Shown piece by piece: positions 11,982 through 30,637 of a DNA stretch of 64,000 nt. The DNA lies in assembly GCA_000990355.1 (NCBI GenBank), contig LBSX01000001.1:3392-67391 (forward strand). Reading direction: 5' to 3'. A program made the translations under genes and the position numbers. Position 1 is the first letter of the stretch. Each line of letters opens with the position of its first letter. This DNA is from Candidatus Magasanikbacteria bacterium GW2011_GWC2_37_14 (GTDB lineage: Bacteria; Patescibacteriota; Patescibacteriia; Magasanikbacterales; UBA922). Under the pieces are notes generated by a model. It ran no database searches. It had not been told where the DNA came from and was given only the letters and a program-made list of their open reading frames with translations.

Positions 11982-12123
11982 GCCAAACAAACGCACCAAA
12001 GGGTGTCTAAATTCTTATCTTTGTACAGGTAAGAACCTAGATGCCCTTTGGTCGAGGGGGCTTCATTCGCTCGGAAATCCCGAGCACGAAAATTTCGACC
12101 ACGAACCACCATGGGAGAGACAG

Positions 12124-12867: not shown

Positions 12868-13030
12868 TTCCCACCGCCACCTCTCACCTCTCTCGCCCCC
12901 TGCCACGTCGTCGTCAGACTTTACGTGGTCTCACGGGCACAACTCAACATCAAGGTTCGCTCTCAACCCCCGTGGTTCACACCCGGGGGAAGAGACTAAT
13001 TCAATCATTTATAAATGATTGAATTACTTC

Positions 13031-13069
13031 ACACAAAATCCACCAAAAAGGTGGATTTTGTGTTTTTGT
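13031..13069 (+). terminator. Rho-independent terminator (14-bp perfect stem plus T-tract)
   Basis: acacaaaatccacc-aaaaa-ggtggattttgtgt followed by tttt. Confidence 0.7.
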
Positions 13070-13074
13070 CTGAC

Positions 13075-13560: not shown

Positions 13561-13575
13561 AACAAATACGTAATT

Positions 13576-14165
13576 TTATTTAAATAAAATTTCTCTTTTC
13601 AACTCCCCCAACTCCTTGTACAACACTGTTTTCACACCCAACTTTTTTGCCTCGGCCATATTTATTAATTGATCATCAACCATCATTACTTCATTTGCTT
13701 TTACTTTATAACGATTAAAAAGATAAAGCATGGTAACCTTGCTCGCTTTAGGTAATTTTAATTCCCAAGTATTAATAATATTTTTGCCAAAAATTTTTTT
13801 TAATTCCGGAAAAATATTATTAATGTCTTTAAATTGTGGTCGGGTATTTTTGGATAATAGCAAAGTCTTAATCCCCCGCCTGCCATGCCGGCTTAAGGCA
13901 AAATTTGTTTATTCAAACCAAAAGTTGAATAATGAATTTGTTTTAATTCTTTGCCAGTAATTGATATGTTTAAAGCTTTGACCGCTTTTTCCCAAGCAGA
14001 CTTTTGACTTATCTTTCTTTCAGCAGCTTCATTAAAAAATCCATATATAATTTTATAAGCATGTTTCTCATTAATTTTAAATCTCTTGGCTACTTTTTTT
14101 GCAGTAAACGGATAACCACCAGTAATTACTACTCCGTAAGCATCAAAAATAATTAATTTGATCAT
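13576..14165 (-). pseudogene. HAD-superfamily hydrolase split into two ORFs (13893-14165 N-half, 13576-13863 C-half)
   Basis: The N-half has motif I (IIFDAYGV). The C-half has motif III/IV (MMVDDQLINMAEAKKLG). The halves are separated by a stop plus frameshift within a 29-nt GC-rich segment (cccccgcctgccatgccggc). The C-half starts at a TTG in the track. Confidence 0.4.
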
Positions 14166-14170
14166 AATTT

Positions 14171-14283
14171 GTCATCCTGAATTTACCTGCCTATCGGCAG
14201 ACAGGTTTCAGGATCTTTCATAAAATAATATTTATTTAGTAAGTTAGATTAAGGGATAGATGCTGAAACAAGTTCAGCATGAC
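14171..14283. repeat. Bipartite palindromic element, GTCATCCTGAA..TTCAGGATC / GATGCTGAA..TTCAGCATGAC type
   Basis: Near-identical copy at 17367-17479, diverged copies at 23457-23548 and 25056-25147. The 3' hairpin overlaps the stop and last codons (..KLSC*) of the adjacent paralog. Confidence 0.8.
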
Positions 14284-15842
14284 AGCTTTCTCACTATCCC
14301 ATGGCTTGCATCTACTTCTACCAAATCACCATCTTTTAAGACTTGAGTGGCCATTTTGGTGCCGACCACGCAAGGAATATAAAGCTCACGAGAAACAATA
14401 GCCGCATGGCAAATAATACCGCCTAAATCAGTAACAATGGCCACAGCTTTTTTTATAGCTGGCATAATATCTGGACTAGTGGCATAAGAAACCAAAACAT
14501 TCCCCTTCTCCATTTTGTTAATTTCTTTTGGTGAATTAATAATTTTTACAATACCACGCACTTTGCCCACGCTAGCACAATCACCCACAAGTTGATTTAC
14601 TTTTTCGGTCTTTTGCTTAATAAATTTTATTTGTTTAACAAAATCTTTGGCTTTTTTGCCTTCGTAAGTCACCCTAGTTTTAGTAGTGCTAAATTGAACT
14701 GCAAAAATTCTTTCATTTAAAATATGCTCATTTGGGCCTTTATTTTTTAACAAATTTTTTAATTCCCAAGAATATAATCTATTTATTTGGCTCATAGACA
14801 ACTGTTGTCGTCTAGCCACTTCTCGTAATAATTTTTGCAACACATAACAACTGTAATATTGAACATCTTTGCGATAAGATTTTGAATAAACAAAACGCTG
14901 GGCCAATTTAAACAATTCTTGAAATTCACTGCGAATTTCCAGATCTTTAATATAATTCTTTTGCGCTCGAATAATTTCTTGTTTTTTATTGGCAATTTTC
15001 TTTAATTCTTCTTCGGGATTTGTTTTTTGTTGCAATAAGCGAATAAGGGAATCTACAAAATAATCAATCCCCCACTCTGGCCCCATATACATAAAAGGCA
15101 ACCAACAATATTTTTCATAATGATTTTTTAAAGCTAACCAAGATTTTTTATCTACCAATTGCCAAGTACTTATTACTTTTTGTAAATCATTGCGAAGCAA
15201 AAAATTTACCAATTTTTTATTTTGTTTGATCTTTTGTAAAAGTTTTAACAAATCAATAGTTTCTTTTTGCGCAAAAGTTTCGGTTGTAGGAGTAGTGAGA
15301 ATACTAAAAACATCACCCACTGAGATTTTTAATTTATTTGCTTGAATTTTTTGCTTAAGATAATTATTTAAATGATTGGAAAATAAGTTTTTTTCAAAAT
15401 CTACTAATACTATTGGCCAACCAGCACACCAAGTATTGTGCAATCCCTTAAACCATTCTGCCCCGAGTTTGGCCAAATCCTTATCAGAAGTATTTTTTAA
15501 ATTTATTTTTTCCAATTTTTGTGAAAAAACAAAAAACTTGTGAGCATTGTTTAATGTTAATTCATCCGTCTTTATTCCCCATTCAGGATTACTAATAATT
15601 TTATTAAAAATCTCATTTGTACAAACACGTAAATCTTCCAAACGATAATAATACAAAAAATCGTCATTTTCAAAAATATCCAGAGTGTCACCCGGATTAG
15701 TTTTTAAATGATGAATACTCTTAAAATATTTATTCACCAAAATAGAATCAGCCAAACAAAAATGAAAAAATGGCGCCCGTGGTATGCGCTCTAAAAGAAA
15801 AAAACTAGGTGATTTTTTTGACATAAAATTAATTAGCTTCAC
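14274..15842 (-). CDS. PEP-utilising-enzyme mobile (phosphohistidine) domain protein, array paralog 1
   Basis: 522 aa. C-terminus GDCASVGKVRGIVKII...GNVLVSYATSPDIMPAIKKAVAIVTDLGGIICHAAIVSRELYIPCVVGT is the PEP-utiliser swivel His domain. N-terminal shared motifs: FSILTTP, KYCWLPFMYMGPEW, SKSYRKD. Confidence 0.75.
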   Translation of the reverse strand: MKLINFMSKKSPSFFLLERIPRAPFFHFCLADSILVNKYFKSIHHLKTNPGDTLDIFENDDFLYYYRLEDLRVCTNEIFNKIISNPEWGIKTDELTLNNAHKFFVFSQKLEKINLKNTSDKDLAKLGAEWFKGLHNTWCAGWPIVLVDFEKNLFSNHLNNYLKQKIQANKLKISVGDVFSILTTPTTETFAQKETIDLLKLLQKIKQNKKLVNFLLRNDLQKVISTWQLVDKKSWLALKNHYEKYCWLPFMYMGPEWGIDYFVDSLIRLLQQKTNPEEELKKIANKKQEIIRAQKNYIKDLEIRSEFQELFKLAQRFVYSKSYRKDVQYYSCYVLQKLLREVARRQQLSMSQINRLYSWELKNLLKNKGPNEHILNERIFAVQFSTTKTRVTYEGKKAKDFVKQIKFIKQKTEKVNQLVGDCASVGKVRGIVKIINSPKEINKMEKGNVLVSYATSPDIMPAIKKAVAIVTDLGGIICHAAIVSRELYIPCVVGTKMATQVLKDGDLVEVDASHGIVRKLSC

Positions 15843-17358
15843 TAATAATATTAACTAGACCCTTGTTTGCATCTACTTCTACTTCGTCTCCATCCTTTAA
15901 TATTTGCGTACCTATTTTGGTACCTATAACGCACGGGATATTTAACTCACGCGAAACAATAGCAGCGTGGCAAGTAATACCACCAACATCTGTAATAATT
16001 GCTTTGGAAATTTTCATTAGTGGCATCATGTTAGGATTGGTGGCATAGCTTACCAAAATATCATGAGCATAAAATTTTCCATAATCCTTTTGGTCTAACA
16101 CAACTTTTACCACACCTCTAACCTTGCCAGGACAAGCACATTCACCAATTAGTACTTTTAAATTTTTATCTATAACCAACTTTTCTAAATTATCCCTATA
16201 CTTTTGTGCTTCATCACCAGCAAATAATTTTACTTTTAAATTTTCACAAGCATAAACGGATAACTTTATTCTCTTATTAACCAAATTATAATCAACTTCT
16301 TTTTTGTTTAATAAGATTTCACTTAATTCTTCTATTGATAAGTAATGAGCTTGGTGAGCACTAAGATAATTTCTTTTACCTATTTCTGTAAGTAACAAAT
16401 GATAAGAATAGTTTCCGCAATATTCAACATCTTTTCTGATCGCTTTTGAAAATCCCAATTCCCTTATTAACCAAACAAGATGCATCTCATATTTATTTAA
16501 AAGCAATTCCTTTTCCCAAAATTTCTGAATTTTGCTAAAATCTTTTTGATTTTTTCTAATATCTACTTCTAAATCAAAAGGATCCTTACGAACTAGTTCT
16601 ATTGTTGATTGTATTATATCTTCTAAAGATAATAATGGCCCTTCAAAACCAAAACTTAACCATTTATATTTATCCCAATGCTTAAACAAGATTTCTTTTA
16701 ATCCAATGTAATTGTCTAAATCACGACTAATTTGGGAAAAATCATTTTTAAAAAATTCATCCCATTTTTTGTTCTTAACAATTTTTTTAGCAATTAATAA
16801 TAATTCATCACGTTCTTTTACTAAATAAGTTTTTTTATTATTAGTGGATAAAATTTGAAACAACTCCTCTGTACCTATTCCTAATTTTAGCTCATTTACT
16901 TTAGATTTTAACAACAGTTTTACTTTTTTGGATAAAAGTTGATGTTCATATTCAACAAACGAAATTAATACGCCCCAAGAAGCTAATTTTAAAAATAAAT
17001 CTCTAAAATCAATAATTAAATTATTTAAATTACCATCTGTTTGTTTATTTAAATCCAAATTAATTACTTTTTTAGAAAAATCATAAAATCTATCAAGAAA
17101 AATAGTTGTATTTTGTAAAACTTTCTGTGAATATACTTTATCTTCCAAATGACTCAAAATATACTTACCCGCTTTATGGTAATCTTGCCAATGTATACCT
17201 TGTGTCAATTCACCATTATTCCTTAGCTCTACGAAATGATCAACTGCCGCTGTGCGACCGCAGGTTTTAGCAAAAAATGCGCCTGTAGCTTGAATATGGT
17301 AGGCATATGGAAACAAATTGGCGTTATATTGTTGATTAAGTATTTTCCATTTACGCAT
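15829..17358 (-). CDS. PEP-utilising-enzyme His-domain protein, array paralog 2
   Basis: 509 aa; ...GECACPGKVRGVVKVV...GGITCHAAIVSRELNIPCVIGT. Overlaps paralog 1 by 14 nt. Confidence 0.75.
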   Translation of the reverse strand: MRKWKILNQQYNANLFPYAYHIQATGAFFAKTCGRTAAVDHFVELRNNGELTQGIHWQDYHKAGKYILSHLEDKVYSQKVLQNTTIFLDRFYDFSKKVINLDLNKQTDGNLNNLIIDFRDLFLKLASWGVLISFVEYEHQLLSKKVKLLLKSKVNELKLGIGTEELFQILSTNNKKTYLVKERDELLLIAKKIVKNKKWDEFFKNDFSQISRDLDNYIGLKEILFKHWDKYKWLSFGFEGPLLSLEDIIQSTIELVRKDPFDLEVDIRKNQKDFSKIQKFWEKELLLNKYEMHLVWLIRELGFSKAIRKDVEYCGNYSYHLLLTEIGKRNYLSAHQAHYLSIEELSEILLNKKEVDYNLVNKRIKLSVYACENLKVKLFAGDEAQKYRDNLEKLVIDKNLKVLIGECACPGKVRGVVKVVLDQKDYGKFYAHDILVSYATNPNMMPLMKISKAIITDVGGITCHAAIVSRELNIPCVIGTKIGTQILKDGDEVEVDANKGLVNIISEAN

Positions 17359-17366
17359 ATTATTTT

Positions 17367-17479
17367 GTCATCCTGAATTTACCTGCCTATCGGCAGACAG
17401 GTTTCAGGATCTTTCTTAAAATAATATTTATTTAGTAAGTTAGATTAAGGGATAGATGCTGAAACAAGTTCAGCATGAC
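17367..17479. repeat. Bipartite palindromic element (copy of 14171-14283)
   Basis: ~120 bp near-identical to 14165-14290, including the AT-rich spacer. Confidence 0.8.
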
Positions 17480-18960
17480 AGCTTTATTACATCTCCATTA
17501 TTACCATCAACTTTTACTAAATCATTATCTTTAAAAATCTTAGTCGCAACTTTTGAACCGACCACACAGGGTTTTTTCATCTCGCGTGCCACAATCGCTG
17601 CATGACAAGTAATGCCACCAATATCAGTGACAAAAGCACTGGCTTTTTTCATGGCTGGTAAAAAATCAGGTGAAGTTTGAACAGCTATTAAAATATCTCC
17701 CTCTGCTACTTTATCAATATCCTTGGCTGTTAAAACCACCTTGGCCTTGCCAGTTGCTTCACCAATATAGGCAACCATACCATGAACCGAAGTAGTATTA
17801 ATATTAAATTCCTCTTGGGCTACGTTTTCTGCCAAATATTTTTCAGCGGCTTTTCCCGTTAAATAAAAAAACTTTTTACCTGGTTCCTCTATACAAACAC
17901 AATGTTGTTTTCTTCCGGCAACTGGTAAATCCTGTATATCCAACTTACCAGCCAAAATATCCAAAAGTTCATACAAACTACAGCGATGTAAATTTACTTT
18001 GGAAATTTCTAATAGTTCTGCCGCCCTATCTAGTAATAAATCTAGGGCAAAAAACATCTTAAACTCGGTTTCAGTGCGGTATTGTTTGTTATACATCATA
18101 TCTCGCGCACCTTTAAACAAATTTTGCTCTACCTCACTCAACTGCAATTTTTCAACTAATTCCTCTTGTTTGACAGCAAATAACTCAAGTTCTTTTTCCG
18201 CCTCTGCCAAACGACTTTCAATATTGCCCATAGTCAAAATCTCTTTTACCTCTTCTACATAAAATTTTTCATCATGTGAGGGGCCAACATAGCCAAAATC
18301 AAACCAAATATATTTTTCTTTTAATTTTTTTATCCGAGGATCATTTACTGCCAAATCACTCTTACCTTGACGTGAGACAATTAAAGCCAATTCAAATAAA
18401 TCTAATTTTAAATCTCGGGCAAAAATATTTTTTATGGGAGTAATTAAAATACTAAAAGCCTCGTTGATATTTATATTTAACTTTAAATCCTCTACTTTTT
18501 TCTTAATAATATCTTTTAGTAAAGTGGAAAGTTTGTAATGACGCAAATCCGAAACTACGGCCACAAAACCCACTCCACACAAATCTTTGCCAGCCTGATA
18601 AAGTTTGCCAATATATTTGGCTAATTTAGCTTTGTTAAATTTTGTCAGATCTTCTTTCATTATTTTATCCGACAATTTAATCACTTTTTTACCTAAGCTT
18701 ATTTCCTCTTTTAAAACTTGAGTACTGTAATTTTTGTCATTTTTTAATTTTTCAATAATAATTTCTCCCATGGCCGTAAAATTTTCCAAATCTCCATACC
18801 AATTAGTACTAGTGTCTTCATGGTGTTCCAAAAAAGAATAGTCAAATTTTAAGGGGGCAGTATGAGGGAAACTGTATTTTTCATGAAAACCCCATTGATT
18901 AAGGCTTAGGGTCAATGGCGTAACTCCTTGTTCTTGATGTAAAATTTTAGATTTTTTCAT
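17470..18960 (-). CDS. PEP-utilising-enzyme His-domain protein, array paralog 3
   Basis: 496 aa; ...GEATGKAKVVLTAKDIDKVAEGDILIAVQTSPDFLPAMKKASAFVTDIGGITCHAAIVAREMKKPCVVGS. Confidence 0.75.
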   Translation of the reverse strand: MKKSKILHQEQGVTPLTLSLNQWGFHEKYSFPHTAPLKFDYSFLEHHEDTSTNWYGDLENFTAMGEIIIEKLKNDKNYSTQVLKEEISLGKKVIKLSDKIMKEDLTKFNKAKLAKYIGKLYQAGKDLCGVGFVAVVSDLRHYKLSTLLKDIIKKKVEDLKLNININEAFSILITPIKNIFARDLKLDLFELALIVSRQGKSDLAVNDPRIKKLKEKYIWFDFGYVGPSHDEKFYVEEVKEILTMGNIESRLAEAEKELELFAVKQEELVEKLQLSEVEQNLFKGARDMMYNKQYRTETEFKMFFALDLLLDRAAELLEISKVNLHRCSLYELLDILAGKLDIQDLPVAGRKQHCVCIEEPGKKFFYLTGKAAEKYLAENVAQEEFNINTTSVHGMVAYIGEATGKAKVVLTAKDIDKVAEGDILIAVQTSPDFLPAMKKASAFVTDIGGITCHAAIVAREMKKPCVVGSKVATKIFKDNDLVKVDGNNGDVIKLSC

Positions 18961-20432
18961 ATTTTTCTCACCACTCCCTTGTCGGCATCCACCTCTACCT
19001 CATCACCATCATGCAAAACATCGGTAGCAACTTTGGTGCCAATTATACAAGGAACTTTTAGTTCACGAGCCACTATTGCCGCATGACAAGTAATGCCACC
19101 CAAATCAGTAATAATCGCCGCAGCCTTTTTCATGGCTGGCACAATACTCGGGTTAGTCATATGCGAAACCAAAATATTACCTTCATGCATTTTTGCCATT
19201 TCCTGAATTTTATTAATAATTTTTACTCTGCCAGTTACTTTACCTTTAAAAGCAGGCTGACCGGTAAGTTCTTGACTATTTTTTTGAATATTTTTTTCTT
19301 CAAAAAATTTCATTTTTGCTCGTATTTTTTTGGCTTCTTCTCCAGAATAATAAACCGTTTGTCCACGATCGGCAATATGCAAACTATATTTCATTCGCTG
19401 GCTGGCCAATTGTGACAAATCTTCACCCTTGATTAACACTCTTTCAAAATCTGTATGTGCCAAAAATCTAACCTGCTCCATGGTTAAATAAGTACGTTTG
19501 GCAACTTCTTTAAATATTTTATCCATTGAATAATATCCAAAAAACTGGGCGTCTTTACTTAAAAGACGGGTATAAAAAGAATCTTGGACAATTTTAAAAA
19601 TCTTTTGGTGTGTGGGATGAATATTATAAGTAGCAAAAATTTCTTTTTGCTGTCTTAAGGTTTCTTGCATCTCTTTTTTTAGATTTTCCAAAAACTTTTT
19701 AGCGCCTTTGTCTTTCAACTTATTCAACTCTTCATTAAAATATGCTTTATCCAAAAATTTTCCTTGTAAACCATATTCCAACCATTCGTATTTTTTTGTA
19801 TGCTTACTCAAAGCAGTTTCTTGTTTACTATTTTCAAGCAAAACAATTTTGGCTAATTCTTCTTTTTCTTTGGTCCAGATACTTTTTTCTTTTGGCACAC
19901 AAAGAATTTGAAAAGCATCATTGGGTTCAAGCTTCACTTCATTTTTAACATCTTGATATTTTTCTTGTAAATAATCTTGTAAATATTTGCTAAGCAAATT
20001 ATAGGGTGTTTCCAAAAACCACATTGGTCCGCGCGGGTCATGCACCAAAATTTGCTTTTGTTCAAACTTATTTATCCAGGTTAACAAATCTTTATTAGTA
20101 GCTTTTTTAAGATTAAGTGTTTGTAGATGCTTACCAAAAACAAACATTTCTTTGGCATACTTTTCGGTTACTTTATGTAGCCCATCCCAACGTTTGGGAT
20201 TGGTAAACATCCAAGAAAAAACCTCTTTATTGGTAGCATCAAAATGTTCTTTGGTAACAAAAAGATTACAACTAGAATTAATATATTCTGCGCCTAAATA
20301 ACGGCCGGGAATAAAACCCCAACGTTTTGGTAAATTGGTGGTAAAACCTTCCCAAGTAGCAGTTACAAAAAGATAATTTGCATAATCTTCTTTTTCTATT
20401 AATTGCCATTCTTTGTTGTATGGTATTTGCAT
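18957..20432 (-). CDS. PEP-utilising-enzyme His-domain protein, array paralog 4
   Basis: 491 aa; ...GQPAFKGKVTGRVKII...GGITCHAAIVARELKVPCIIGT. Confidence 0.75.
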   Translation of the reverse strand: MQIPYNKEWQLIEKEDYANYLFVTATWEGFTTNLPKRWGFIPGRYLGAEYINSSCNLFVTKEHFDATNKEVFSWMFTNPKRWDGLHKVTEKYAKEMFVFGKHLQTLNLKKATNKDLLTWINKFEQKQILVHDPRGPMWFLETPYNLLSKYLQDYLQEKYQDVKNEVKLEPNDAFQILCVPKEKSIWTKEKEELAKIVLLENSKQETALSKHTKKYEWLEYGLQGKFLDKAYFNEELNKLKDKGAKKFLENLKKEMQETLRQQKEIFATYNIHPTHQKIFKIVQDSFYTRLLSKDAQFFGYYSMDKIFKEVAKRTYLTMEQVRFLAHTDFERVLIKGEDLSQLASQRMKYSLHIADRGQTVYYSGEEAKKIRAKMKFFEEKNIQKNSQELTGQPAFKGKVTGRVKIINKIQEMAKMHEGNILVSHMTNPSIVPAMKKAAAIITDLGGITCHAAIVARELKVPCIIGTKVATDVLHDGDEVEVDADKGVVRKI

Positions 20433-20437
20433 AATAA

Positions 20438-20558
20438 TCTCGAGCCACAGCGAGAGATCCCTTTTCTATGAGATTAACTCGCTATATTAAATTAGTTGTT
20501 TAGTTAAATCGAAAGGGATTCCTCACCCCGCATTTGCGGGGTTCGGAATTATGGTGAC
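20438..20558. repeat. ~115-bp palindromic element; an inverted copy is at 58596-58703
   Basis: The reverse complement of 58596-58703 aligns almost base for base (atctcgagccacagcgagagatccc...gggattcctcacc...ttcggaat). Its end supplies the last codons (PNPANAG*) of paralog 5. Confidence 0.8.
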
Positions 20559-22013: not shown

Positions 22014-22024
22014 AAATAAATTTG

Positions 22025-23461: not shown

Positions 23462-23548
23462 CCTGAATTTATTTCAGGATCTTTTTTAAGTATTTTTTAT
23501 TTAATAAATCTAGATAACGAAAAGATGCTGAAACGAGTTCAGCATGAC
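23457..23548. repeat. Bipartite palindromic element (GTCATCCTGAA..TTCAGGATC / GATGCTGAAACGAGTTCAGCATGAC)
   Basis: Same two-hairpin architecture as 14171-14283. Confidence 0.7.
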
Positions 23549-25047
23549 AGCTTTCTGACAATCCCCGCCTCTAGATCCACCTCCACCCGATCACCATCCT
23601 TAAAAACTTGTAATAAATGTTTAACACCAATTAAACAAGGTTTATTGAGTTCACGAGAAACAATAGCTGCGTGACAAGTAAGCCCACCAGTTTGCGTAAC
23701 AATTGCCGCCGAACGACGCATGGCTGGCACATGGTCCGGTGTAGTATTACTAGAAAGTAGTATATCACCAGCCTCTACTTTGTTTATATCTTGATTAGAC
23801 ATGACGATTTTAACAATTCCTTGCACTTGTTTCACTCCTCCACCACAAGCAACTGTACCAGCAAATTCAGTTAGTTCCAAATCTACTTCTTCTACTTCTA
23901 CATTATCCTTCATCCATTGTTTGGCTTCTTCTCCTACCAAAATTTTATCACTGTCTTTTTCGGAAATAAGTAAAGCATAATTTAAACGCTGATTTAAAAT
24001 ATCGGCCTTGGGCAAAGGCAATTCATTTTTTAAATAAGCTTGTAATTCCGAAACTGCACACATTCCAAATTGACGAATAGAATAACTTTCTTTTTTGGCA
24101 AAAACAGCCAATAACTTATTTATAGTAAAACAAGCTAGTGCCATAAGATTCGCTCGATAAGCTTTGGTATAACCAAAATCCTGAGCAATAGTGACAAAAT
24201 ATTTTTCATCTTCGCTAAAACCCAATTGCTCCATTATTTTTGTTTGTTTTTGTAATAATTCTTGAAAATTATTTTTAATAATTTTTAACTGTTCACTAGG
24301 TTTAAGATTTTGTGACAAAATATGACTTATTTCTTCTTTAGCATTATTAATGTTATATTCTGGCCCTTTGTAGCCATAAAACACCCAACCATATTTTTCT
24401 ATTGCTTGTAAAATTATTTTTTTGCCATCGTCTGATAAATTATCTAACTTTTCTCCTTGTTCAAATAGCCAATCAGCTATTAAATATAATTCAACTTTTA
24501 AATCTTCGGTCCAAGTTGTGTTTCTCGGAGTAGTAAGAATAGACAAACATTCATTTGCCGACATTTCTACAACAGACAAATTTTTGTTTCTAATTATTTC
24601 GGCAATTTTATTACTCATTCCCCCACCACCTAATTCCACAAACGGCCCTACCATGCCACTGGTACAAATAGTACTAAATAATTCTAAAATTTTTAAAATA
24701 CTCTCTTTAATTTTTTCCTCGGTCATTTGTCCACTTTTAAATTCACCAAGTGTTTCATTACAAAGCAAATACAAACTTTGGCCATTTTTTAACAAATGAT
24801 CTTTTACTTGCTCGGCAAACTGGTGATCATTATTAATTTTTTGCCATAAATAATCACCAAAATCAAACCAACTTTCTTTTTCGGCAATGGCATTCATTAC
24901 TTCACCTTCTACTTGATAAACGAAAGTTTTTAAAATACGACCAGTTAACCTTTCTAAATCCTTATGAAAAAAACCACGAATAATTGGGTGTAAACCTAAA
25001 ATATTACAATTTGGTTCGGTGTTTACTATACAATATTGTTTGATCAT
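23539..25047 (-). CDS. PEP-utilising-enzyme His-domain protein, array paralog 7
   Basis: 502 aa; ...GTVACGGGVKQVQGIVKIV...GGLTCHAAIVSRELNKPCLIGV. Confidence 0.75.
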   Translation of the reverse strand: MIKQYCIVNTEPNCNILGLHPIIRGFFHKDLERLTGRILKTFVYQVEGEVMNAIAEKESWFDFGDYLWQKINNDHQFAEQVKDHLLKNGQSLYLLCNETLGEFKSGQMTEEKIKESILKILELFSTICTSGMVGPFVELGGGGMSNKIAEIIRNKNLSVVEMSANECLSILTTPRNTTWTEDLKVELYLIADWLFEQGEKLDNLSDDGKKIILQAIEKYGWVFYGYKGPEYNINNAKEEISHILSQNLKPSEQLKIIKNNFQELLQKQTKIMEQLGFSEDEKYFVTIAQDFGYTKAYRANLMALACFTINKLLAVFAKKESYSIRQFGMCAVSELQAYLKNELPLPKADILNQRLNYALLISEKDSDKILVGEEAKQWMKDNVEVEEVDLELTEFAGTVACGGGVKQVQGIVKIVMSNQDINKVEAGDILLSSNTTPDHVPAMRRSAAIVTQTGGLTCHAAIVSRELNKPCLIGVKHLLQVFKDGDRVEVDLEAGIVRKLSC

Positions 25048-25055
25048 AAACGTTT

Positions 25056-25147
25056 GTCATCCTGAACTTGTTTCAGGATCTTTAATAAAATAATATTTAT
25101 CTAGAAAATAATCTAACGAAAAGATGCTGAAATAAATTCAGCATGAC
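25056..25147. repeat. Bipartite palindromic element (GTCATCCTGAACTTGTTTCAGGATC / GATGCTGAAATAAATTCAGCATGAC)
   Basis: Same family as 14171-14283. Confidence 0.7.
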
Positions 25148-26586
25148 AGCTTAATCACTGTCCCACTCGTCGCATCCACTTCCACTGTATCTCCATCTTT
25201 TAAAACATAAGTAGCACTCTTGGTGCCAATTATGCAAGGAATGTGCAATTCCCGCGCCACAATGGCCGCATGACAAGTAAGACCACCTTGGTTGGTAACA
25301 AAGGCACTGGCTTTTTTCATAATTGGTAAAAGAGATGGATCAGTAACAATCGATACTAAAATGTCACCTTCACTAAATTTATTCATTTCTTCGGCTCGAT
25401 TTACAATTGATACTTTTCCAATTACCTTGCCTGGATAACCACACTCCCCTTTTAATTCATTAACTTGTTCAAGTTTTGGTAAAACTTTTTTTGCTGGCTC
25501 CACACACTTAACAGCCGCTTCGCCAGTTAACAAATAAATTTTTTCACCATCAAAATATCTTACTGAGTAATTTCCTAGTTCATTGATAAAATCATGTTCA
25601 AAACATCCTTTTTCCAACATTTCAATTAATAATGGCATTGTTATATTGTATATTTGTGCCAAAGAAAAATAATTATCTTTGGCTATTCTTTTTAAAATTG
25701 GTTGTATAGCTTCGTAACTAGAAAAAAGTGCATCCATGCGATAGGTTTTCATGAATAATAATTCTTCCATTTGTCTAAACAAAATAATTTCTGGTTCAGA
25801 AAAATTTAATTTATTAATCCAAAATTCTTTATCAACTAATAATTGCTGATCTTTTTCTAAAACTTCGGCTAATTTTTCCGCTCTACCTTCTTTTAACAAA
25901 CCTTTAGCCACCTCGGTAAAATATTCCAAACTTAAATTTGGACCAGTCCAACCAAAAGTAATCCAGCTAAACTTTTGCCAATGTTTGGTAATTTCTGTTT
26001 GATTATTATTTTCACTTACAATTTTTAGCATTTCTCGCTCTTCTTTTTGGGCTGCCGATAATTCCCGTGGTGTAGACAAAACTTGAAAGACTTTAATTAA
26101 TTCTTCACCTATTAAACCTTTTTCTTTTAAGATGTTTTTTAAATAATCCGATAATAAAGAATTTTCTAATTCCAAAACATTAGTAATTTGTCCCAAGGTC
26201 CAAACTGTAAAATGTTTTTCTTGGTATTTTTTAAACCAACCAACAATTTCTTCTTCACTTAGTGTCCCTACTTCTAACTTTTTTAATTCACTAGACAATA
26301 GATTTAATTCATCTGCAGCTTTTCTTAAATCTGCAGAAACACTAGCCAATTTATTTGGTTCTTGTATAACTTCGGCTAACCAACGTTTACCAATTTCTGT
26401 CCATTCAGAACGAGAAAACATTATTCTTTGAACATTTTTTTCCTGTTCCACAATCATTTGGCTTATCCCATAACCCAGTCTTTCTTTAATAGTAAAAGCC
26501 AAACCATCTACATATGCAGAATGAAACCAAAAAATATCATACCACTCACCAAACAAAAACCAATCTTTTACAGTTATTTTTTTCAT
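25138..26586 (-). CDS. PEP-utilising-enzyme His-domain protein, array paralog 8
   Basis: 482 aa; ...GECGYPGKVIGKVSIV...GGLTCHAAIVARELHIPCIIGT. Confidence 0.75.
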   Translation of the reverse strand: MKKITVKDWFLFGEWYDIFWFHSAYVDGLAFTIKERLGYGISQMIVEQEKNVQRIMFSRSEWTEIGKRWLAEVIQEPNKLASVSADLRKAADELNLLSSELKKLEVGTLSEEEIVGWFKKYQEKHFTVWTLGQITNVLELENSLLSDYLKNILKEKGLIGEELIKVFQVLSTPRELSAAQKEEREMLKIVSENNNQTEITKHWQKFSWITFGWTGPNLSLEYFTEVAKGLLKEGRAEKLAEVLEKDQQLLVDKEFWINKLNFSEPEIILFRQMEELLFMKTYRMDALFSSYEAIQPILKRIAKDNYFSLAQIYNITMPLLIEMLEKGCFEHDFINELGNYSVRYFDGEKIYLLTGEAAVKCVEPAKKVLPKLEQVNELKGECGYPGKVIGKVSIVNRAEEMNKFSEGDILVSIVTDPSLLPIMKKASAFVTNQGGLTCHAAIVARELHIPCIIGTKSATYVLKDGDTVEVDATSGTVIKLSC

Positions 26587-28028
26587 AATTTCTTAATTAT
26601 ACCATTAGTTGCGTCTACCTCAATTTGATCACCGTCTTTTAAAATCTTATCTGCTTGGGGTACGCCGACCACACAAGGAATTTTTAACTCACGGGCAACA
26701 ATGGCCGTGTGACAAGTAAGGCCGCCTGACTCAGAAACCATAGCAGCCGCCTTTTTCATTGCCGGCACCAAATTAGGGTTGGTATTGTGCGCCACTAAAA
26801 TATCACCTTCATTCATTTTAGACACCTGTTCTGGCAAGTTGATTATCTTAACTGTACCACGAACTTTTCCCGGACAAGCACAAGTGCCAAAAAGTTCGTT
26901 GCTTTCTTTTACTTTAATTTTTTCAAATTTAATTTTGCTCATGAATTCTTTATAAGCTTGACCTGTATACATTACATATTTTTTACCATCACAATACGCT
27001 GCACACTCTTTTAAGCGTTGGTTTAATTCATTTTCATCATATTGATGTTTTAATAATGCTGGGGCAATTTCCCAATGATTCATTGCCCTCACTTGATCGA
27101 GCGACAAACCTAACCTCTTGCCGATTTCTTTAAAAATAAAACTATAACAATACATACCATGATACAACGCCATTTTACGATATTCTTTAATATGTACCAT
27201 TTGCTGTGCAAGCTTAATAAGATCTAGTTGATACTGGTTAAATTTTAATAATTTTAAAAGGTTATTTTGCTCCTGCAACATCTGACGACGATCGGTGATA
27301 ATTTTTTTAAGTAATACTTCTCGTTTTTCACCCAACTCCTCTAACGATTGCCAACGCTCCAAATAGTCTTTTTTAGTATATGCTGGACCTTTAAATTGAT
27401 AAGGTAACCAACAATATTTTTTACAATGTTTATCAAGTTCTTCGATATTTTTTAAACGTAAAAAAGCCATTTCTTCTTTGGTTACAATACTCTGCTGCCG
27501 CGGCGTGGAAAGTGTGCTAAACACAATTGCTGGTATCAAATTTAACTTTTTTTGCTTAATTTGTTCACTAATCATTTTTAAAATTCCTTTACTTACCCGC
27601 TCTTTTTCACAATCTGCATGCCAAGAAACAGATGGACCAATACCATGAGAATAATAATGAAATTTATATGACAAAAGAAAAACTTTAATTAAATCTTTGG
27701 CTGATAATTTTTTTAAATTATATTTTAATTGTCTGTCTGAAGCTTTAAAAAATTCAGTAGACCATTTTTCTACTTTAAGAATAATTTTTAATGCCCAATC
27801 AGGGTTGGCCAACATTTTTTTAGCCAAAAAATCTGCTTCAGCATCAAATTCTTTCCGCAGATAGCACATTCTAGAAAAATCACCCTGGTACCAAGTAAAA
27901 TAATGTTTAACTTTGCCGCCCAAACCAAATTTGGGCCACAGCTTAAAGGAGCCTGTCATTGTTACACCCATTACAAATGGGGTATTCTGGGTAATTTCAG
28001 CAATTACACACCAAGAATTTTTTTTCAT
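26583..28028 (-). CDS. PEP-utilising-enzyme His-domain protein, array paralog 9
   Basis: 481 aa; ...GTCACPGKVRGTVKII...GGLTCHTAIVARELKIPCVVGV. Confidence 0.75.
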   Translation of the reverse strand: MKKNSWCVIAEITQNTPFVMGVTMTGSFKLWPKFGLGGKVKHYFTWYQGDFSRMCYLRKEFDAEADFLAKKMLANPDWALKIILKVEKWSTEFFKASDRQLKYNLKKLSAKDLIKVFLLSYKFHYYSHGIGPSVSWHADCEKERVSKGILKMISEQIKQKKLNLIPAIVFSTLSTPRQQSIVTKEEMAFLRLKNIEELDKHCKKYCWLPYQFKGPAYTKKDYLERWQSLEELGEKREVLLKKIITDRRQMLQEQNNLLKLLKFNQYQLDLIKLAQQMVHIKEYRKMALYHGMYCYSFIFKEIGKRLGLSLDQVRAMNHWEIAPALLKHQYDENELNQRLKECAAYCDGKKYVMYTGQAYKEFMSKIKFEKIKVKESNELFGTCACPGKVRGTVKIINLPEQVSKMNEGDILVAHNTNPNLVPAMKKAAAMVSESGGLTCHTAIVARELKIPCVVGVPQADKILKDGDQIEVDATNGIIKKL

Positions 28029-29107
28029 ATTTTTTTTATTATACCATTAATGGCATCCACTTCTACCATATCGCCATCTTTTAAAACTTTAGTGGAAATT
28101 TTGGTTCCAGTGATACAAGGGATATTTAATTCACGCGCCACAATTGCTGCATGACAAGTAATACCACCTTCGTCAGTAATAATTGCCTTAGCTTTTTTCA
28201 TAATCGGGATAAAAAAAGGATTTGTCATAACCGTCACAAGGACATTTCCTTCCTTAAAATTAATAATTTCATCATTTTTTAAAATAATATTGACAATTCC
28301 TTTTATTGAGGTTGATCCGGTACAAGAAACCACCCCTCTAATTTCTTGATTGATAAATTGATTAACAGGTGCGGAAAAATAAAAATCTTGTTTTTCAAAA
28401 AAAACTTCTTTTGAAATATTAGTATATACTTTATCACCTAAAAAAATATAACCTGTAGAACGATTCTCTAATTCCTCTTTATTGGGTACATAATTATTAT
28501 CATCAAGCATTTTTTGAATTTCTGTAAAAGTTACAAAAGAAGCATATTTATTTTCCAGTTTTCTTTGCGATAATAAAATTCTAGCCACTGCTCGCCAATA
28601 CTGTACCAATTCTTGAATGGCACCTTCTGATTTTACTCTAGCATTTATCAGGCGTTCTAAAATATCATTTGCTTCTTTAGGATATTTTTCTTTAAGCTGT
28701 GGGGCCCACTGTGCCTGTGGCAATAAATAACTTACTGTATACCAAGGGTACATTTCTCTAGAGAGTTGTTTTATTTTTTCAAATACTGCTCTGTTTGCAA
28801 AATCTTTATTTTTATTAATCTTCCCCATTAATTCACGTATTTGTTTGACCAGTAGAATATAATGATTAATTTTATTTTCACTGAAAAAACCATTTTTAGG
28901 ATCGGTATTTACTACCGCTTTAAAAAAGGCTTTGGCTTCATCAACTACTCTATAAGTTTCCAACAATCGTCCATTAAAATAATATAACTGACTAGGAATG
29001 CCTATTCCAAAAACCTCCATGAGCCTTGGATTCATTTGTCCTGACCACCACTCTGCCCAAGCCAATGTATAATCGCGAGTCCAAGCTAAAAAAATTTCTT
29101 TTTTCAT
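28025..29107 (-). CDS. PEP-utilising-enzyme His-domain protein, array paralog 10 (short N-domain, 360 aa)
   Basis: ...GSTSIKGIVNIIL...GGITCHAAIVARELNIPCITGT. The N-terminal region is ~120 aa shorter than its siblings. Confidence 0.7.
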   Translation of the reverse strand: MKKEIFLAWTRDYTLAWAEWWSGQMNPRLMEVFGIGIPSQLYYFNGRLLETYRVVDEAKAFFKAVVNTDPKNGFFSENKINHYILLVKQIRELMGKINKNKDFANRAVFEKIKQLSREMYPWYTVSYLLPQAQWAPQLKEKYPKEANDILERLINARVKSEGAIQELVQYWRAVARILLSQRKLENKYASFVTFTEIQKMLDDNNYVPNKEELENRSTGYIFLGDKVYTNISKEVFFEKQDFYFSAPVNQFINQEIRGVVSCTGSTSIKGIVNIILKNDEIINFKEGNVLVTVMTNPFFIPIMKKAKAIITDEGGITCHAAIVARELNIPCITGTKISTKVLKDGDMVEVDAINGIIKKI

Positions 29108-30561
29108 AATTTTCTAATTATACCATTAATTATATCTACTTCCACTATGTCACCGTCTTTAAATACTTTGGTGCCAATTTTTGTACCTACCAAACAAGGA
29201 ATGCCAAGCTCACGAGAAACAATGGCTGCATGAGACAATAATCCCCCTTCGTCCGTAACAATGGCTCCTGCGCGCTCCATAGCGGGCACTAACGTGGGAT
29301 TGGTAGCTGGTGCAATCAAAATATCGCCTTTGTTTACTTTTTTAGCGTCGGCATCGCAAAGCACCAACTTTACTATTCCTGTGATCACTCCAGGCGAAGC
29401 ACCTTGACCACTTAACTCGATAATATTTTCATACTTTTCTATTTTCAATTCTTGTTTTTTATATTCTTCAAGTTTTTTACCAGAAAGCACAATAACTTTA
29501 TTACCTTCTAAAATAATTGCACTTTCAATTACTCGTTCATTTAATTTTTCTAAAGATAAAATTAATTCTCCACGATTTAAACTGTCTAAAATTTCTACAC
29601 CCCGCATTTCAATCAATTGTTTGTATGACATTCCTAAACGTCTGGCAATTTCATTAAACAATGGTTTTAAATTTACAACTGTAAAAGTAAAAACCTCGTC
29701 TACCAAACTATAAGCTGAAGCTTGAGCGCGAGCCGATTCAATATACTTAAGAATATTTTCTGGTAAATCTAATTCATTAATAAGCAATTCTCGCTTACTT
29801 AAATCATTTTCTAATTGTTTTATTTTTTGTAGTTCATTTTCAACACCATTATTCAATACTTCTTTAATTCTTTCTAAAATAATATCTTTATTATACAATT
29901 CACCGCGAAAATAATACTGCCCTAAATAAGCAAATTTACATAAATGTGTACTCACTAAATTTTCTAATTCTTGATTATAACCATTATCTTCTACAAACTT
30001 CGCTAAATTTAATAAAAAAAATTTTTCTTGCCTTGTTTCTGAAGAATCTTCTAATTGTAGTAAGATATTAAAATCTTCGTTTTGTTTATTAATATTTGGT
30101 TCTTTTTTAGCAATCTCGGCAAAAATTAAATCCGGTAAAAATTTATTAGTAATAATGGCGTTGTAAGCAAAAGCCCACATTTTACGAGTACAAGCTAAAT
30201 ATTCGGAAAAATTTATAAACAACACTTCTGTTTCTTGTTCAGACCAATTAAGATCTTTTATTTGTAAAACAAAATCTTTTAATTGCTTAATGCGTCTTTT
30301 ATATTCATTGGCGTATTCTAGCAAAGCACCAGGATTAGCAAGTTCTTTTTTACGAAAAAAATCACAAAAATCTGCTAAATTCTCTGAACCAAACCAACGA
30401 GCCCCAGCTAATTGCCGAAAGTTTTGAGGCTTAAATTCGGGCTTATTAAAGTCTAAACCTAAAAATGCCATAAATCCCTCCATAGCAGTGTCAATCAAAA
30501 GCAAGGCATGATTTTCGCCTCTACGAGTAATTTCCTCCCAAATTAGCTTACTTTCGGCCAT
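29104..30561 (-). CDS. PEP-utilising-enzyme His-domain protein, array paralog 11 (variant GGLLSHAAIVSREL)
   Basis: 485 aa; ...GQGASPGVITGIVKLV...GGLLSHAAIVSRELGIPCLVGT. Confidence 0.7.
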   Translation of the reverse strand: MAESKLIWEEITRRGENHALLLIDTAMEGFMAFLGLDFNKPEFKPQNFRQLAGARWFGSENLADFCDFFRKKELANPGALLEYANEYKRRIKQLKDFVLQIKDLNWSEQETEVLFINFSEYLACTRKMWAFAYNAIITNKFLPDLIFAEIAKKEPNINKQNEDFNILLQLEDSSETRQEKFFLLNLAKFVEDNGYNQELENLVSTHLCKFAYLGQYYFRGELYNKDIILERIKEVLNNGVENELQKIKQLENDLSKRELLINELDLPENILKYIESARAQASAYSLVDEVFTFTVVNLKPLFNEIARRLGMSYKQLIEMRGVEILDSLNRGELILSLEKLNERVIESAIILEGNKVIVLSGKKLEEYKKQELKIEKYENIIELSGQGASPGVITGIVKLVLCDADAKKVNKGDILIAPATNPTLVPAMERAGAIVTDEGGLLSHAAIVSRELGIPCLVGTKIGTKVFKDGDIVEVDIINGIIRKL

Positions 30562-30637
30562 ATATAGCTATTTTAGCCAAATAATCTATAAAAATCAAGA
30601 GAAAAACAAAAACAGTCTATTTCTTCAACAGACTGTT

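What the first reader, a model, noticed from the sequence alone, without database searches (positions are those of the whole stretch)
14274..30561. 16-kb tandem array of 11 hyper-diverged paralogs sharing a PEP-utiliser phosphohistidine domain but lacking any ATP-grasp domain
Eleven consecutive co-directional genes, several with 4-14 nt overlaps, encode 360-520-aa proteins. Their last ~110 aa are highly conserved: G-x-(C/G)A-x-x-G-K-V-x-G-x-V-K-I/V, then G(D/N)ILV..T.P...PAMKKA.A(I/F)VTD.GG(I/L)TCHAAIV(A/S)REL.IPC(V/I)VG(T/S). This is the swivel phosphohistidine domain of PEP synthase, PPDK and rifampin phosphotransferase, with the catalytic His in (T/C)H. The preceding ~350 aa are only 15-30% identical among copies but keep the ordered motifs (F/L)xILTTP, KYxWLxxGxxGP and (S/T)KxYRKD. 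No Walker/ATP-grasp signature of the PPDK_N type is visible. From the published domain layout of rifampin phosphotransferase (ATP-grasp domain, all-alpha rifampin-binding domain, C-terminal His domain), these proteins look like stand-alone substrate-binding plus His-domain modules. Strong N-terminal diversification alongside purifying selection on the catalytic domain is the classic signature of substrate or target diversification. That would fit xenobiotic or antibiotic phosphorylation, or a target-variable defence or interaction system. One paralog has SH in place of CH and one has a truncated N-domain. I do not know of a described system with this organisation.
Basis: partly seen in the sequence, partly recalled or inferred. 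Interest (0 to 1): 0.88.

Follow-up and report, generated by a model that had tools for sequence, protein, structure and literature searches.

The report
Split dikinase acceptor-module array in CPR
Eleven neighbouring genes in a tiny groundwater bacterium (Candidatus Magasanikbacteria) each encode the "substrate-binding plus phosphate-carrying" half of a rifampin-phosphotransferase-like kinase, while the single ATP-binding half sits elsewhere in the genome; such one-ATP-module, many-acceptor kinase batteries are widespread in ultra-small bacteria and archaea, and I found no description of them.

Summary
Eleven co-directional minus-strand genes (14274-30561) all end in a PF00391 swivel phosphohistidine domain (E 1e-23 to 1e-28). 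None has an ATP-grasp (PF01326) domain. N-domains are 11-28% identical between paralogs; His domains are 41-61%.

This split layout is already described: two-component small-molecule dikinases PpsAB, CreHI, HpeHI and PasAB. New here:
- An 11:1 ratio of acceptor genes to ATP-grasp gene, with the ATP-grasp gene unlinked (KKQ27280.1, same MAG).
- His and ATP-grasp parts resembling PEP synthase.
- Restriction mainly to CPR bacteria and DPANN archaea.
- Related genomes with arrays of 2-13 modules plus one ATP-grasp gene, or one ORF fusing an ATP-grasp domain to up to 8 modules.

The paralogs are old subfamilies under purifying selection (omega 0.04-0.08, measured for one paralog), not an arms-race system. 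There are no defence or phage links. Recurrent neighbours are phosphohydrolases.

Most likely function: one ATP-grasp protein charges the His of each module, and each module phosphorylates a different small molecule. The substrates are unknown.

The parts
14274..15824 (-). Paralog 1 (516 aa from ATG 15824; the ORF caller's GTG start at 15842 gives 522 aa). Long-form acceptor module: RIF-BD-like N-domain plus swivel His domain (GGIICH).
   Evidence: PF00391 E 3.8e-23; KKQ28176.1; orthologues in L003 and L005 with N-domain 46-51% identical.
15829..17358 (-). Paralog 2 (509 aa), long-form module, GGITCH.
   Evidence: PF00391 E 8.2e-23; alignment A1.
17470..18960 (-). Paralog 3 (496 aa), long-form module, ends in KLSC.
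   Evidence: PF00391 E 2.3e-26.
18957..20432 (-). Paralog 4 (491 aa, KKQ28179.1), long-form module; this is the one modelled.
20523..22013 (-). Paralog 5 (496 aa), long-form module, GGLTCH.
   Evidence: PF00391 E 8.3e-28.
22025..23461 (-). Paralog 6 (478 aa), long-form module with the most divergent N-domain, GGMLCH.
   Evidence: PF00391 E 1.3e-27; one 41%-identical relative found in JGI metagenomes.
23539..25047 (-). Paralog 7 (502 aa), long-form module, ends in KLSC.
   Evidence: PF00391 E 7.2e-23.
25138..26586 (-). Paralog 8 (482 aa), long-form module, ends in KLSC.
   Evidence: PF00391 E 1.6e-26; orthologue in L003 with N-domain 44% identical.
26583..28028 (-). Paralog 9 (481 aa), long-form module, GGLTCHT.
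   Evidence: PF00391 E 2.8e-27.
28025..29107 (-). Paralog 10 (360 aa). Member of a conserved short-form subfamily: reduced helical N-domain plus swivel His domain.
29104..30561 (-). Paralog 11 (485 aa), long-form module with GGLLSH; lacks the basic residue at the position aligned to RPH Arg666.
   Evidence: PF00391 E 1.6e-23; alignment A1.
13576..14165 (-). HAD-superfamily hydrolase immediately downstream of the array. In this assembly it is split into two frames (13893-14165 and 13576-13863). It is intact (196 aa) in the related strain L168.
   Evidence: HAD motif I (IFDAYGVV) visible in the translation. HAD-like ORFs recur in or next to arrays in 8 loci. L168 copy is 83% identical in DNA and intact. 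The ENA assembly diverges at 13895.
14174..14280 (-). Double-hairpin 3'/intergenic element, copy 1 (after paralog 1). Hairpin 1 overlaps the KLSC stop codon; hairpin 2 precedes the next start codon.
17370..17476 (-). Double-hairpin element, copy 2 (after paralog 3).
   Evidence: 82% identical 300-nt repeat with copy 1.
23460..23545 (-). Double-hairpin element, copy 3 (after paralog 7).
25059..25144 (-). Double-hairpin element, copy 4 (after paralog 8).
30570..30639 (-). Boundary upstream of the array: a 13-bp-stem terminator-like hairpin (30609-30639) after the VirD4-like gene, and a promoter-like site (30570-30598) before paralog 11.
   Evidence: consensus scan only.

Best explanation
The array encodes eleven 'H-type' (acceptor) components of a split ATP-dependent small-molecule dikinase of the rifampin-phosphotransferase / phenylphosphate-synthase kind. 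Each protein is a RIF-binding-domain-like, mostly helical substrate domain followed by a swivel phosphohistidine domain. The ATP-grasp ('I-type') component is a separate 330-aa PPDK_N-only protein (KKQ27280.1). It is encoded once, on another contig of the same MAG, Candidatus Magasanikbacteria GW2011_GWC2_37_14. Proposed mechanism (inferred by homology, not shown): the shared ATP-grasp protein binds ATP and phosphorylates the catalytic His (GGxT(C/S)H) of whichever module docks on it, releasing AMP and Pi. The swivel domain then returns to its own N-domain and passes the phosphoryl group to the small molecule bound there. A conserved basic/polar set probably forms the site: H211, K214, R292/K293 of the Y-R-K-D motif, E309, R313 and R346 in paralog-4 numbering. 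The eleven N-domains are ancient subfamilies, and the one paralog tested is under strong purifying selection. They therefore most likely specify eleven different acceptors, making a kinase battery with one energy-coupling subunit. The recurrent HAD, histidine-phosphatase-like, HD and acylphosphatase neighbours suggest that the phosphorylated products are later processed or dephosphorylated. The substrates are unknown.
Against: There is no biochemical evidence. No ATP-grasp gene lies in the 64-kb window, and the slot it occupies in relatives is rearranged here, so coupling in this genome relies on an unlinked gene. RPH Glu667 is not conserved. The Arg666-aligned position is K/R in only 9 of 11 paralogs, and the alignment register is uncertain by about one helical turn. 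The swivel domain is PEP-synthase-like: Thr at position -2 in 8 of 11 paralogs, and best PDB hits are PEP synthases (E 7e-46). Characterised two-component dikinases have Met there, so a different donor or a regulatory phosphorylation cannot be excluded. NCBIfam scores are far below every family cutoff. The dN/dS estimate rests on one paralog and one strain pair, and in that strain the gene is split by a ~124-nt insertion.
Confidence: 0.66

Rival explanations
1. Phosphorelay or regulatory proteins. The swivel domains act as phosphocarriers, as in PTS enzyme I to HPr or the PEP-synthase regulatory circuit, and the helical N-domains bind macromolecular partners rather than small molecules. The array would then be a signalling or regulatory set.
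For: The swivel domain is PEP-synthase/EI-like and keeps the Thr that is a regulatory phosphosite in PEP synthase. Stand-alone ~104-120-aa His-domain proteins are encoded next to the ATP-grasp gene in several loci (L003, L055, L042, L063), which hints at carrier-type phosphotransfer. No substrate is known.
Against: The N-domain fold matches only the RPH small-molecule-binding domain. All characterised relatives with this architecture phosphorylate small molecules. Neighbours are small-molecule phosphohydrolases and PTA rather than regulators.
Confidence: 0.12
2. Antibiotic or xenobiotic inactivation battery. Each module is an RPH-like resistance kinase that phosphorylates a different antibiotic produced by hosts or neighbours. 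This is a special case of the best explanation with a defined substrate class.
For: The closest solved structure is the rifampin resistance kinase. RPH belongs to a wide family of small-molecule dikinases, some of which act on antibiotics (PMC12167813).
Against: NCBIfam RPH models score 43-73 bits against cutoffs of 999-1700, and only over the C-terminal part. Orthologous subfamilies are conserved across CPR classes and into DPANN under strong purifying selection, in a housekeeping context. That pattern fits core metabolism better than accessory resistance. Phosphatase neighbours would undo an inactivation.
Confidence: 0.12
3. Target-variable anti-phage defence or interaction system, with a diversifying N-domain on a conserved catalytic domain.
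For: Tandem paralogy with a conserved catalytic domain and divergent N-domains. Array size differs between close strains.
Against: PADLOC gives no hit for four of the five paralogs scanned and only one marginal match for paralog 11 (Cas85f, E 1.4e-4). The N-domain is absent from 2.9 million viral contigs, where only generic His domains matched. Omega is 0.04-0.08 in the N-domain. Each of the four paralogs checked (1, 4, 8 and the short paralog 10) has conserved orthologues. There is no nuclease, toxin or sensor partner.
Confidence: 0.03
4. Ordinary PEP synthase / PPDK paralogs with divergent but complete ATP-grasp domains.
For: Public annotation calls them 'Phosphoenolpyruvate synthase/pyruvate phosphate dikinase'. 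The His domain is closest to PEP synthase.
Against: No PF01326 or PF02896 hit at E<=1. The N-domain is almost all alpha-helical and superposes on RPH together with the swivel domain, rather than being an alpha/beta ATP-grasp fold. The proteins are 360-520 aa, against ~790 aa for PEP synthase.
Confidence: 0.01

Closest known systems
Two-component small-molecule dikinases: HpeHI (Rhodococcus), CreHI (Corynebacterium), PpsAB phenylphosphate synthase (Thauera/Aromatoleum), PasAB (Desulfatiglans)
   Same: The same split. One protein carries a RIF-BD-like substrate domain plus a C-terminal swivel domain with the catalytic His. A separate ~35-40-kDa ATP-grasp protein supplies the phosphate from ATP (PMC12167813, PMC7500099). 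The window proteins have that domain order and fold, and the genome has a separate PPDK_N-only protein.
   Different: Known systems are 1:1 gene pairs in aromatic-catabolism clusters, with H components of ~600-640 aa and Met at position -2 of the His. Here there are 11 H genes (360-516 aa) to one unlinked ATP-grasp gene, and the swivel motif is PEP-synthase-like GGxT(C/S)H. No carboxylase or aromatic pathway is nearby. NCBIfam PRK08296-type models align only over the last ~110 aa. The hosts are CPR/DPANN with minimal metabolism.
Rifampin phosphotransferase RPH (PDB 5FBS/5FBT/5FBU, 5HV1-3; NCBIfam NF041857)
   Different: RPH is a single 865-aa chain with a fused N-terminal ATP-grasp domain. Identity is ~15-17%, scores are far below the family cutoff, and Glu667 is not conserved.
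PEP synthase (PpsA; PDB 8A8E, 9DAE, 2OLS)
   Same: The swivel His domain is most similar to that of PEP synthase (E 7e-46; GGxT(C/S)HAAIV(A/S)RE motif). The stand-alone partner is a complete PPDK_N domain (E 1.4e-96).
   Different: There is no PEP/pyruvate-binding TIM-barrel domain. The ATP-grasp domain is a separate protein. The acceptor domain is RPH-like.
PigC/RedH/HapC prodiginine ligases and other RPH-family enzymes
   Same: They belong to the same superfamily of ATP-grasp plus swivel His enzymes that activate an oxygen on a small molecule. NCBIfam PigC/RedH models match the C-terminal region.
   Different: They are fused, single-chain ~880-aa enzymes encoded in biosynthetic clusters.

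Membership tests
PEP synthase / pyruvate phosphate dikinase | N-terminal ATP-grasp nucleotide-binding domain (PF01326) in the same chain | tested here: not met
   No PF01326 hit at E<=1 in any of the 11 proteins. A custom PPDK_N HMM and tblastn are negative over the whole window.
PEP synthase / pyruvate phosphate dikinase | C-terminal PEP/pyruvate-binding TIM barrel (PF02896) | tested here: not met
   The proteins end at the swivel domain and have no PF02896 hit.
PEP synthase / pyruvate phosphate dikinase | Swivel phosphohistidine domain with the GGxT(S/C)H motif | tested here: met
   PF00391 E 1e-23 to 1e-28. His is invariant, and Thr at -2 is present in 8 of 11. Best PDB hits are PEP synthases.
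Rifampin phosphotransferase (RPH, NF041857 / NF000283) | Whole-protein score above the curated cutoff | tested here: not met
   39-73 bits against cutoffs of 999 and 1700.
Rifampin phosphotransferase (RPH, NF041857 / NF000283) | Three-domain single chain: ATP-grasp, RIF-BD, swivel | tested here: not met
   The ATP-grasp domain is absent from the chain.
Rifampin phosphotransferase (RPH, NF041857 / NF000283) | RIF-BD-type substrate-binding fold next to the swivel domain | tested here: met
Rifampin phosphotransferase (RPH, NF041857 / NF000283) | Catalytic Arg666-Glu667 (and Lys670) in the substrate domain | tested here: inconclusive
   The aligned segment carries a conserved Y-R-K-D motif. K/R occupies the Arg666-aligned column in 9 of 11 paralogs, and the Lys670-aligned K is 79% conserved family-wide. 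Glu667 is not conserved, and the register is uncertain.
Two-component small-molecule dikinases (HpeHI/CreHI/PpsAB) | H component = RIF-BD-like domain plus C-terminal swivel domain with catalytic His, without an ATP-grasp domain | tested here: met
   definition from PMC12167813.
Two-component small-molecule dikinases (HpeHI/CreHI/PpsAB) | A separate ATP-grasp (I) component encoded in the genome | tested here: met
   KKQ27280.1 / P0177, 330 aa, PF01326 only (E 1.4e-96), same MAG name as window protein P0245. Composition and a shared repeat support the same genome. It is adjacent to the arrays in at least 17 related loci.
Two-component small-molecule dikinases (HpeHI/CreHI/PpsAB) | 1:1 adjacent H-I gene pair within a catabolic cluster | tested here: not met
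   The ratio is 11 H to 1 I, and the I gene is unlinked. The context is housekeeping genes, with no carboxylase.
Two-component small-molecule dikinases (HpeHI/CreHI/PpsAB) | Met at position -2 of the catalytic His (reported for RPH, HpeH, CreH and PpsA) | tested here: not met
   The position is Thr in 8 of 11 and Ile or Leu in 3 of 11; literature feature.
Two-component small-molecule dikinases (HpeHI/CreHI/PpsAB) | ATP-dependent phosphorylation of a small molecule that requires both components; H alone catalyses phosphate exchange | not testable with these tools
   This needs biochemistry.
Known anti-phage defence systems (PADLOC) | Match to a defence-system protein model | tested here: not met
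   Of the five paralogs scanned, four had no hit and one had a marginal Cas85f hit at E 1.4e-4.

The most novel reading that the evidence does not exclude
CPR bacteria and DPANN archaea share a previously undescribed modular 'one ATP-grasp, many acceptors' dikinase battery. It takes the form of arrays of up to 13 genes, or single polyproteins with up to 8 modules. It lets these ultra-small episymbionts phosphorylate a whole panel of distinct, probably host- or environment-derived, small molecules using one energy-coupling subunit. If so, it would be a lifestyle-linked salvage or detoxification organ that takes up about 1.5% of a ~1-Mb genome and has been exchanged between the two domains.
Probability: 0.4. 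Interest if true: 0.8.

Novelty: new variant of a known kind. Interest (0 to 1): 0.62.

Why it matters
CPR and DPANN organisms make up a large share of microbial diversity. They have tiny genomes, and most of their conserved lineage-specific genes have no assigned role. Here a ~1-Mb-class genome spends 16 kb on eleven anciently diverged kinase modules. The one paralog that could be tested is under strong purifying selection. The same system recurs across both radiations, as shown by the N-domain profile search (4,904 representative clusters), sometimes fused into giant polyproteins. That points to an important and experimentally tractable activity. The proteins are soluble and model with high confidence, the partner is identified, and assays exist for HpeHI and PpsAB. 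Identifying the acceptors would show which metabolites these symbionts capture, activate or neutralise. It would also provide a natural library of ATP-dependent small-molecule phosphotransferases with varied specificities, and it would correct the widespread mis-annotation of these genes as 'PEP synthase' or 'phenylphosphate synthase'.

Tried and rejected
- Rfam (gathering thresholds over the whole window; E<=1 over 10900-14400) and tRNA scans found nothing.
- PADLOC: no defence assignment for the paralogs.
- Viral-contig scan: only generic swivel domains, many in giant-virus bins, and no N-domain.
- tblastn for PPDK_N in the window: negative.
- Walking the contig beyond the window failed. The look-up of the last window protein was not on record, probably because of its start codon.
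- The metagenome scan with paralog 6 returned only one 41%-identical locus.
- dN/dS among paralogs, or against ~50-60%-identical orthologues, was rejected as meaningless because synonymous sites are saturated. A ~87-90%-identical strain (L168) was used instead, which gives only one paralog and one pair.
- The high-GC island ORF (11896-12867) gave no Pfam, PHROG or phage hit.
- I considered that the GC island was an assembly chimera. I rejected that as the sole explanation because L168 has a GC-rich island in the same place.
- I considered the VirD4-like gene as part of the system. I rejected it because it is not a conserved neighbour elsewhere and is separated from the array by a strong hairpin.
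- Literature searches for a CPR/Patescibacteria description of these arrays found nothing. One DPANN paper merely lists 'phenylphosphate synthase' genes without a pathway.

Full report
OBSERVATION

The window is a ~35% GC chromosome segment of Candidatus Magasanikbacteria bacterium GW2011_GWC2_37_14 (Patescibacteria/CPR). Its proteins include KKQ28176.1, KKQ28179.1 and KKQ28187.1 (locus tag US42_C0001G0038). Eleven consecutive minus-strand ORFs occupy 14274-30561.

All eleven carry PF00391 at the C-terminus, with E 6e-23 to 8e-28. None has PF01326, PF02896 or any other significant domain. Pairwise identity averages 18% (11-28%) in the N-part and 52% (41-61%) in the His part.

Three details need correction:
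- The 14-nt overlap is a start-codon artefact; the annotated start of paralog 1 is ATG 15824.
- The 360-aa copy is not truncated (see 'The paralogs are old' below).
- SH is a normal variant of the catalytic motif.

WHAT THE PROTEINS ARE

NCBIfam finds only partial matches, far below every cutoff. Several of them extend ~140-270 aa upstream of the His domain into the RPH/PRK06241-type models. A profile of the eleven paralogs aligns to rifampin phosphotransferase (5FBS) over profile 249-493 / RPH 616-866. A deeper 73-sequence profile aligns over 238-489 / RPH 610-866.

The swivel domain itself is most like that of true PEP synthase (8A8E, E 7e-46), including the GGxT(C/S)H motif.

THE ORGANISATION IS KNOWN IN PRINCIPLE

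Dexter et al. 2025 (PMC12167813) define a subfamily of two-component small-molecule dikinases. HpeI, CreI and PpsB are stand-alone ATP-grasp proteins. HpeH, CreH and PpsA carry the RIF-BD-like and swivel domains. Three biochemical points come from that paper:
- Both components are needed for ATP-dependent phosphorylation.
- HpeH alone moves phosphate between substrates.
- The His mutant is inactive.

PasAB, which acts on aniline, is another example (PMC7500099). In RPH, Arg666 and Glu667 (with Lys670) of the substrate domain are required for the second transfer (PMC4844700). The family's Y-R-K-D motif falls on exactly that helix in the HMM alignment.

Across 347 long-form members the conserved N-domain positions are a polar/basic set: H211, K214-Y-x-W217, R292/K293, E309, R313 and R346. 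RPH Glu667 is not conserved, and the alignment register is uncertain by about one helical turn.

THE ATP-GRASP PARTNER

The window contains no PPDK_N coding potential. Related loci do:
- L001 has six modules plus a 321-aa PPDK_N gene, a HAD hydrolase and an acylphosphatase.
- L003/L004 have ~10 modules, then a 104-aa stand-alone His domain and a 332-aa PPDK_N gene.

I surveyed 83 fetched loci with custom HMMs. Arrays of 2-13 modules are common, and a single stand-alone ATP-grasp gene (282-357 aa) lies at one end in at least 17 loci.

Several genomes fuse the whole system into one ORF: an N-terminal ATP-grasp domain followed by 2-8 modules, each with its own catalytic His. Examples are L043 (3761 aa, 8 modules), L062 and L073 (4 modules each), L074 (3) and L046 (2). 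This is Rosetta-stone evidence that one ATP-grasp domain serves many modules.

Stand-alone PPDK_N proteins are abundant and 66-79% identical among the best 120 hits, those that carry a source name being Patescibacteria and many of them Magasanikbacteria. One of them, P0177 (KKQ27280.1, 330 aa, PF01326 E 1.4e-96), is annotated from the same MAG as the window. Three lines of evidence tie its locus L086 to the window's genome:
- GC content is 0.352 in both.
- Tetranucleotide usage correlates at r = 0.994, as high as within-window comparisons.
- The two share a double-hairpin repeat found in no other fetched genome.

The partner therefore exists in this genome but is unlinked.

Synteny explains why. 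In relatives the order is array, PPDK_N, zf_Tbcl_2, MnmA, AlaRS, ribosomal proteins, RpoA (L003 together with L084). The window has the same housekeeping run at 670-8424. The slot downstream of its array (11.1-14.3 kb) instead holds a frame-split HAD gene, a DUF559 ORF, a 62-71% GC island and a DUF5674 gene pair. An independent ENA assembly is identical to the window down to 13895 and then diverges.

THE PARALOGS ARE OLD, NOT HYPER-EVOLVING

- Paralog 4 has more than 60 full-length relatives at 45-61% identity in other Patescibacteria.
- Paralogs 1, 4 and 8 have orthologues whose N-domains are 44-57% identical, against 25-29% to the best sibling in the window.
- The short paralog has ~357-368-aa orthologues at 53-70% identity, including one labelled Woesearchaeota, and a wider 30-40% family in CPR and DPANN.
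- Its model (pLDDT 95.7) aligns to RPH over only 176 residues. It is therefore a reduced-N-domain subfamily.

Against an 87-90%-identical strain (L168), paralog 4 gives dS 0.6-0.9. Omega is 0.04 and 0.08 for the two halves of the N-domain and 0.065 for the His part. This is a single paralog and a single strain pair.

In the same strain the paralog-4 orthologue is followed directly by the HAD gene. Paralogs 3, 2 and 1 are absent there, so array size varies between close relatives.

A profile built from the N-domains alone finds 4,904 representative clusters at E<=1e-3 and 741 at E<=1e-30 among 1.84 billion. Most are 480-520 aa, with multi-module proteins of up to 2,309 aa.

DISTRIBUTION AND CONTEXT

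The loci fetched from GTDB species genomes come overwhelmingly from Patescibacteria and from DPANN archaea (Micrarchaeota, Woesearchaeota, Nanoarchaeota). A few records carry other labels, and several of those are probably placeholder names.

A DPANN metagenomics paper lists such genes as 'phenylphosphate synthase' and notes that the downstream carboxylase is missing (PMC8091004). I found no description of the arrays themselves.

Recurrent neighbours across 42 array-bearing loci are:
- the ATP-grasp gene;
- a ~200-aa HAD hydrolase (8 loci, including this window);
- histidine-phosphatase-like proteins, one of which sits directly upstream of this genome's ATP-grasp gene;
- HD-domain proteins;
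- an acylphosphatase;
- PTA_PTB and hexapeptide transferases (in DPANN);
- DUF5674.

PADLOC and viral-contig searches give no defence or phage link. The rest of the window is housekeeping: RpoA, AlaRS, MnmA, MurA, RpoD, DnaG, SecDF, SecA, MurB and a Mur ligase.

CIS ELEMENTS

Paralogs 1, 3, 7 and 8 end in KLSC, followed by a conserved ~85-107-nt element with two hairpins. The first hairpin overlaps the stop codon. The second ends in TTCAGGATGACA, just before the next gene's start. These elements divide the array into five blocks: P11-P10-P9-P8, then P7, then P6-P5, then P4-P3, then P2-P1. A 13-bp-stem hairpin separates the upstream VirD4-like gene from the array. These are consensus-level signals only.

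MECHANISM AND VERDICT

Shown:
- the domain architecture and fold;
- homology to RPH;
- a separate ATP-grasp gene in the same MAG;
- its adjacency or fusion to the modules in relatives;
- purifying selection (one paralog);
- the distribution.

Inferred:
- the shared ATP-grasp protein charges each module's His from ATP;
- each module phosphorylates its own small-molecule acceptor;
- the neighbouring phosphohydrolases act downstream.

Unknown:
- the substrates;
- whether the PEP-synthase-like Thr is regulatory;
- whether the stand-alone His-domain proteins take part.

This is a new variant of a known enzyme kind. It is not a new principle, but it is unusual in its stoichiometry and modularity and in its restriction mainly to the two ultra-small-cell radiations.

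Noticed in passing
window 12050-13000 (ORF 11896-12867 +): A ~1-kb island of 62-71% GC in a 35% GC genome, spanned by a 323-aa ORF with no Pfam, PHROG, phage or Rfam match. The related strain L168 has a GC-rich island (61-67%) at the same place, with conserved flanks (~86% identity) but an unalignable centre and no shared reading frame. It could be horizontally acquired DNA, a variable cassette or an unrecognised structured RNA.
   Followed up: partly
window 13576-14165 (-), breakpoint at 13895: The HAD hydrolase gene downstream of the array is split into two frames in this assembly. An independent ENA assembly is identical to the window up to 13895, then diverges and ends. The gene is intact in strain L168. 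This is probably an assembly or strain junction rather than a real pseudogene.
   Followed up: partly
window 14174-14280, 17370-17476, 23460-23545, 25059-25144; also L086:13547-13596: A genome-specific double-hairpin (REP-like) element: ATGCTGAA-N5-TTCAGCAT and ATCCTGAA-N5/25-TTCAGGAT. The first hairpin supplies the 'SC-stop' end of four paralogs. The second contains an AGGA just before the next start codon. All four copies in the 64-kb window lie inside the array.
   Followed up: partly
window 20412-20527 and 58613-58730: A 118-nt intergenic repeat (91.5% identical). One copy lies between paralogs 5 and 4, the other downstream of the Mur-ligase gene.
   Followed up: no
L043:6380-17665; L061, L062, L073, L074, L046: Giant single ORFs that fuse one ATP-grasp domain to 2-8 acceptor modules (up to 3761 aa) in Woesearchaeota, Nanoarchaeota and Patescibacteria: polyprotein versions of the array.
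   Followed up: partly
L003:19844-20158; also L055, L042, L063, L012: Stand-alone ~100-120-aa swivel His-domain proteins, often encoded next to the stand-alone ATP-grasp gene. They could be free phosphocarriers.
   Followed up: no
L168 (GCA_964523225.1 CAZFXT010000045.1) against window 13585-20438: In a strain 83-90% identical in DNA, the paralog-4 orthologue is followed directly by the HAD gene, so paralogs 3-1 are missing. The orthologue itself is split by a ~124-nt insertion. Array content is therefore fluid between close relatives.
   Followed up: partly
window 41209-43254 (-): The SecD homologue carries a PpiC-type peptidyl-prolyl isomerase (Rotamase) domain at residues ~248-359, inserted between the SecD P1 N-terminal and P1-head subdomains. 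This is an unusual translocon-chaperone fusion.
   Followed up: no
window 30638-32356 (-): A TrwB/VirD4/TraD-type coupling-protein-like ATPase (HerA/DUF87-like) with a long low-complexity, lysine-rich C-terminal tail sits immediately upstream of the array. No other conjugation genes were recognised among the window ORFs that I scanned. It is not a conserved neighbour of the arrays elsewhere.
   Followed up: partly
window 11080-11759 (-): A DUF5674 gene and a 111-aa partner ORF. The same pair recurs next to dikinase arrays in three other loci (L012, L041, L058).
   Followed up: partly
window 13129-13497 (-): A DUF559 (Vsr-like endonuclease fold) ORF lies between the HAD gene and the GC island. 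It is absent from the corresponding place in strain L168 and may mark a mobile insertion.
   Followed up: no
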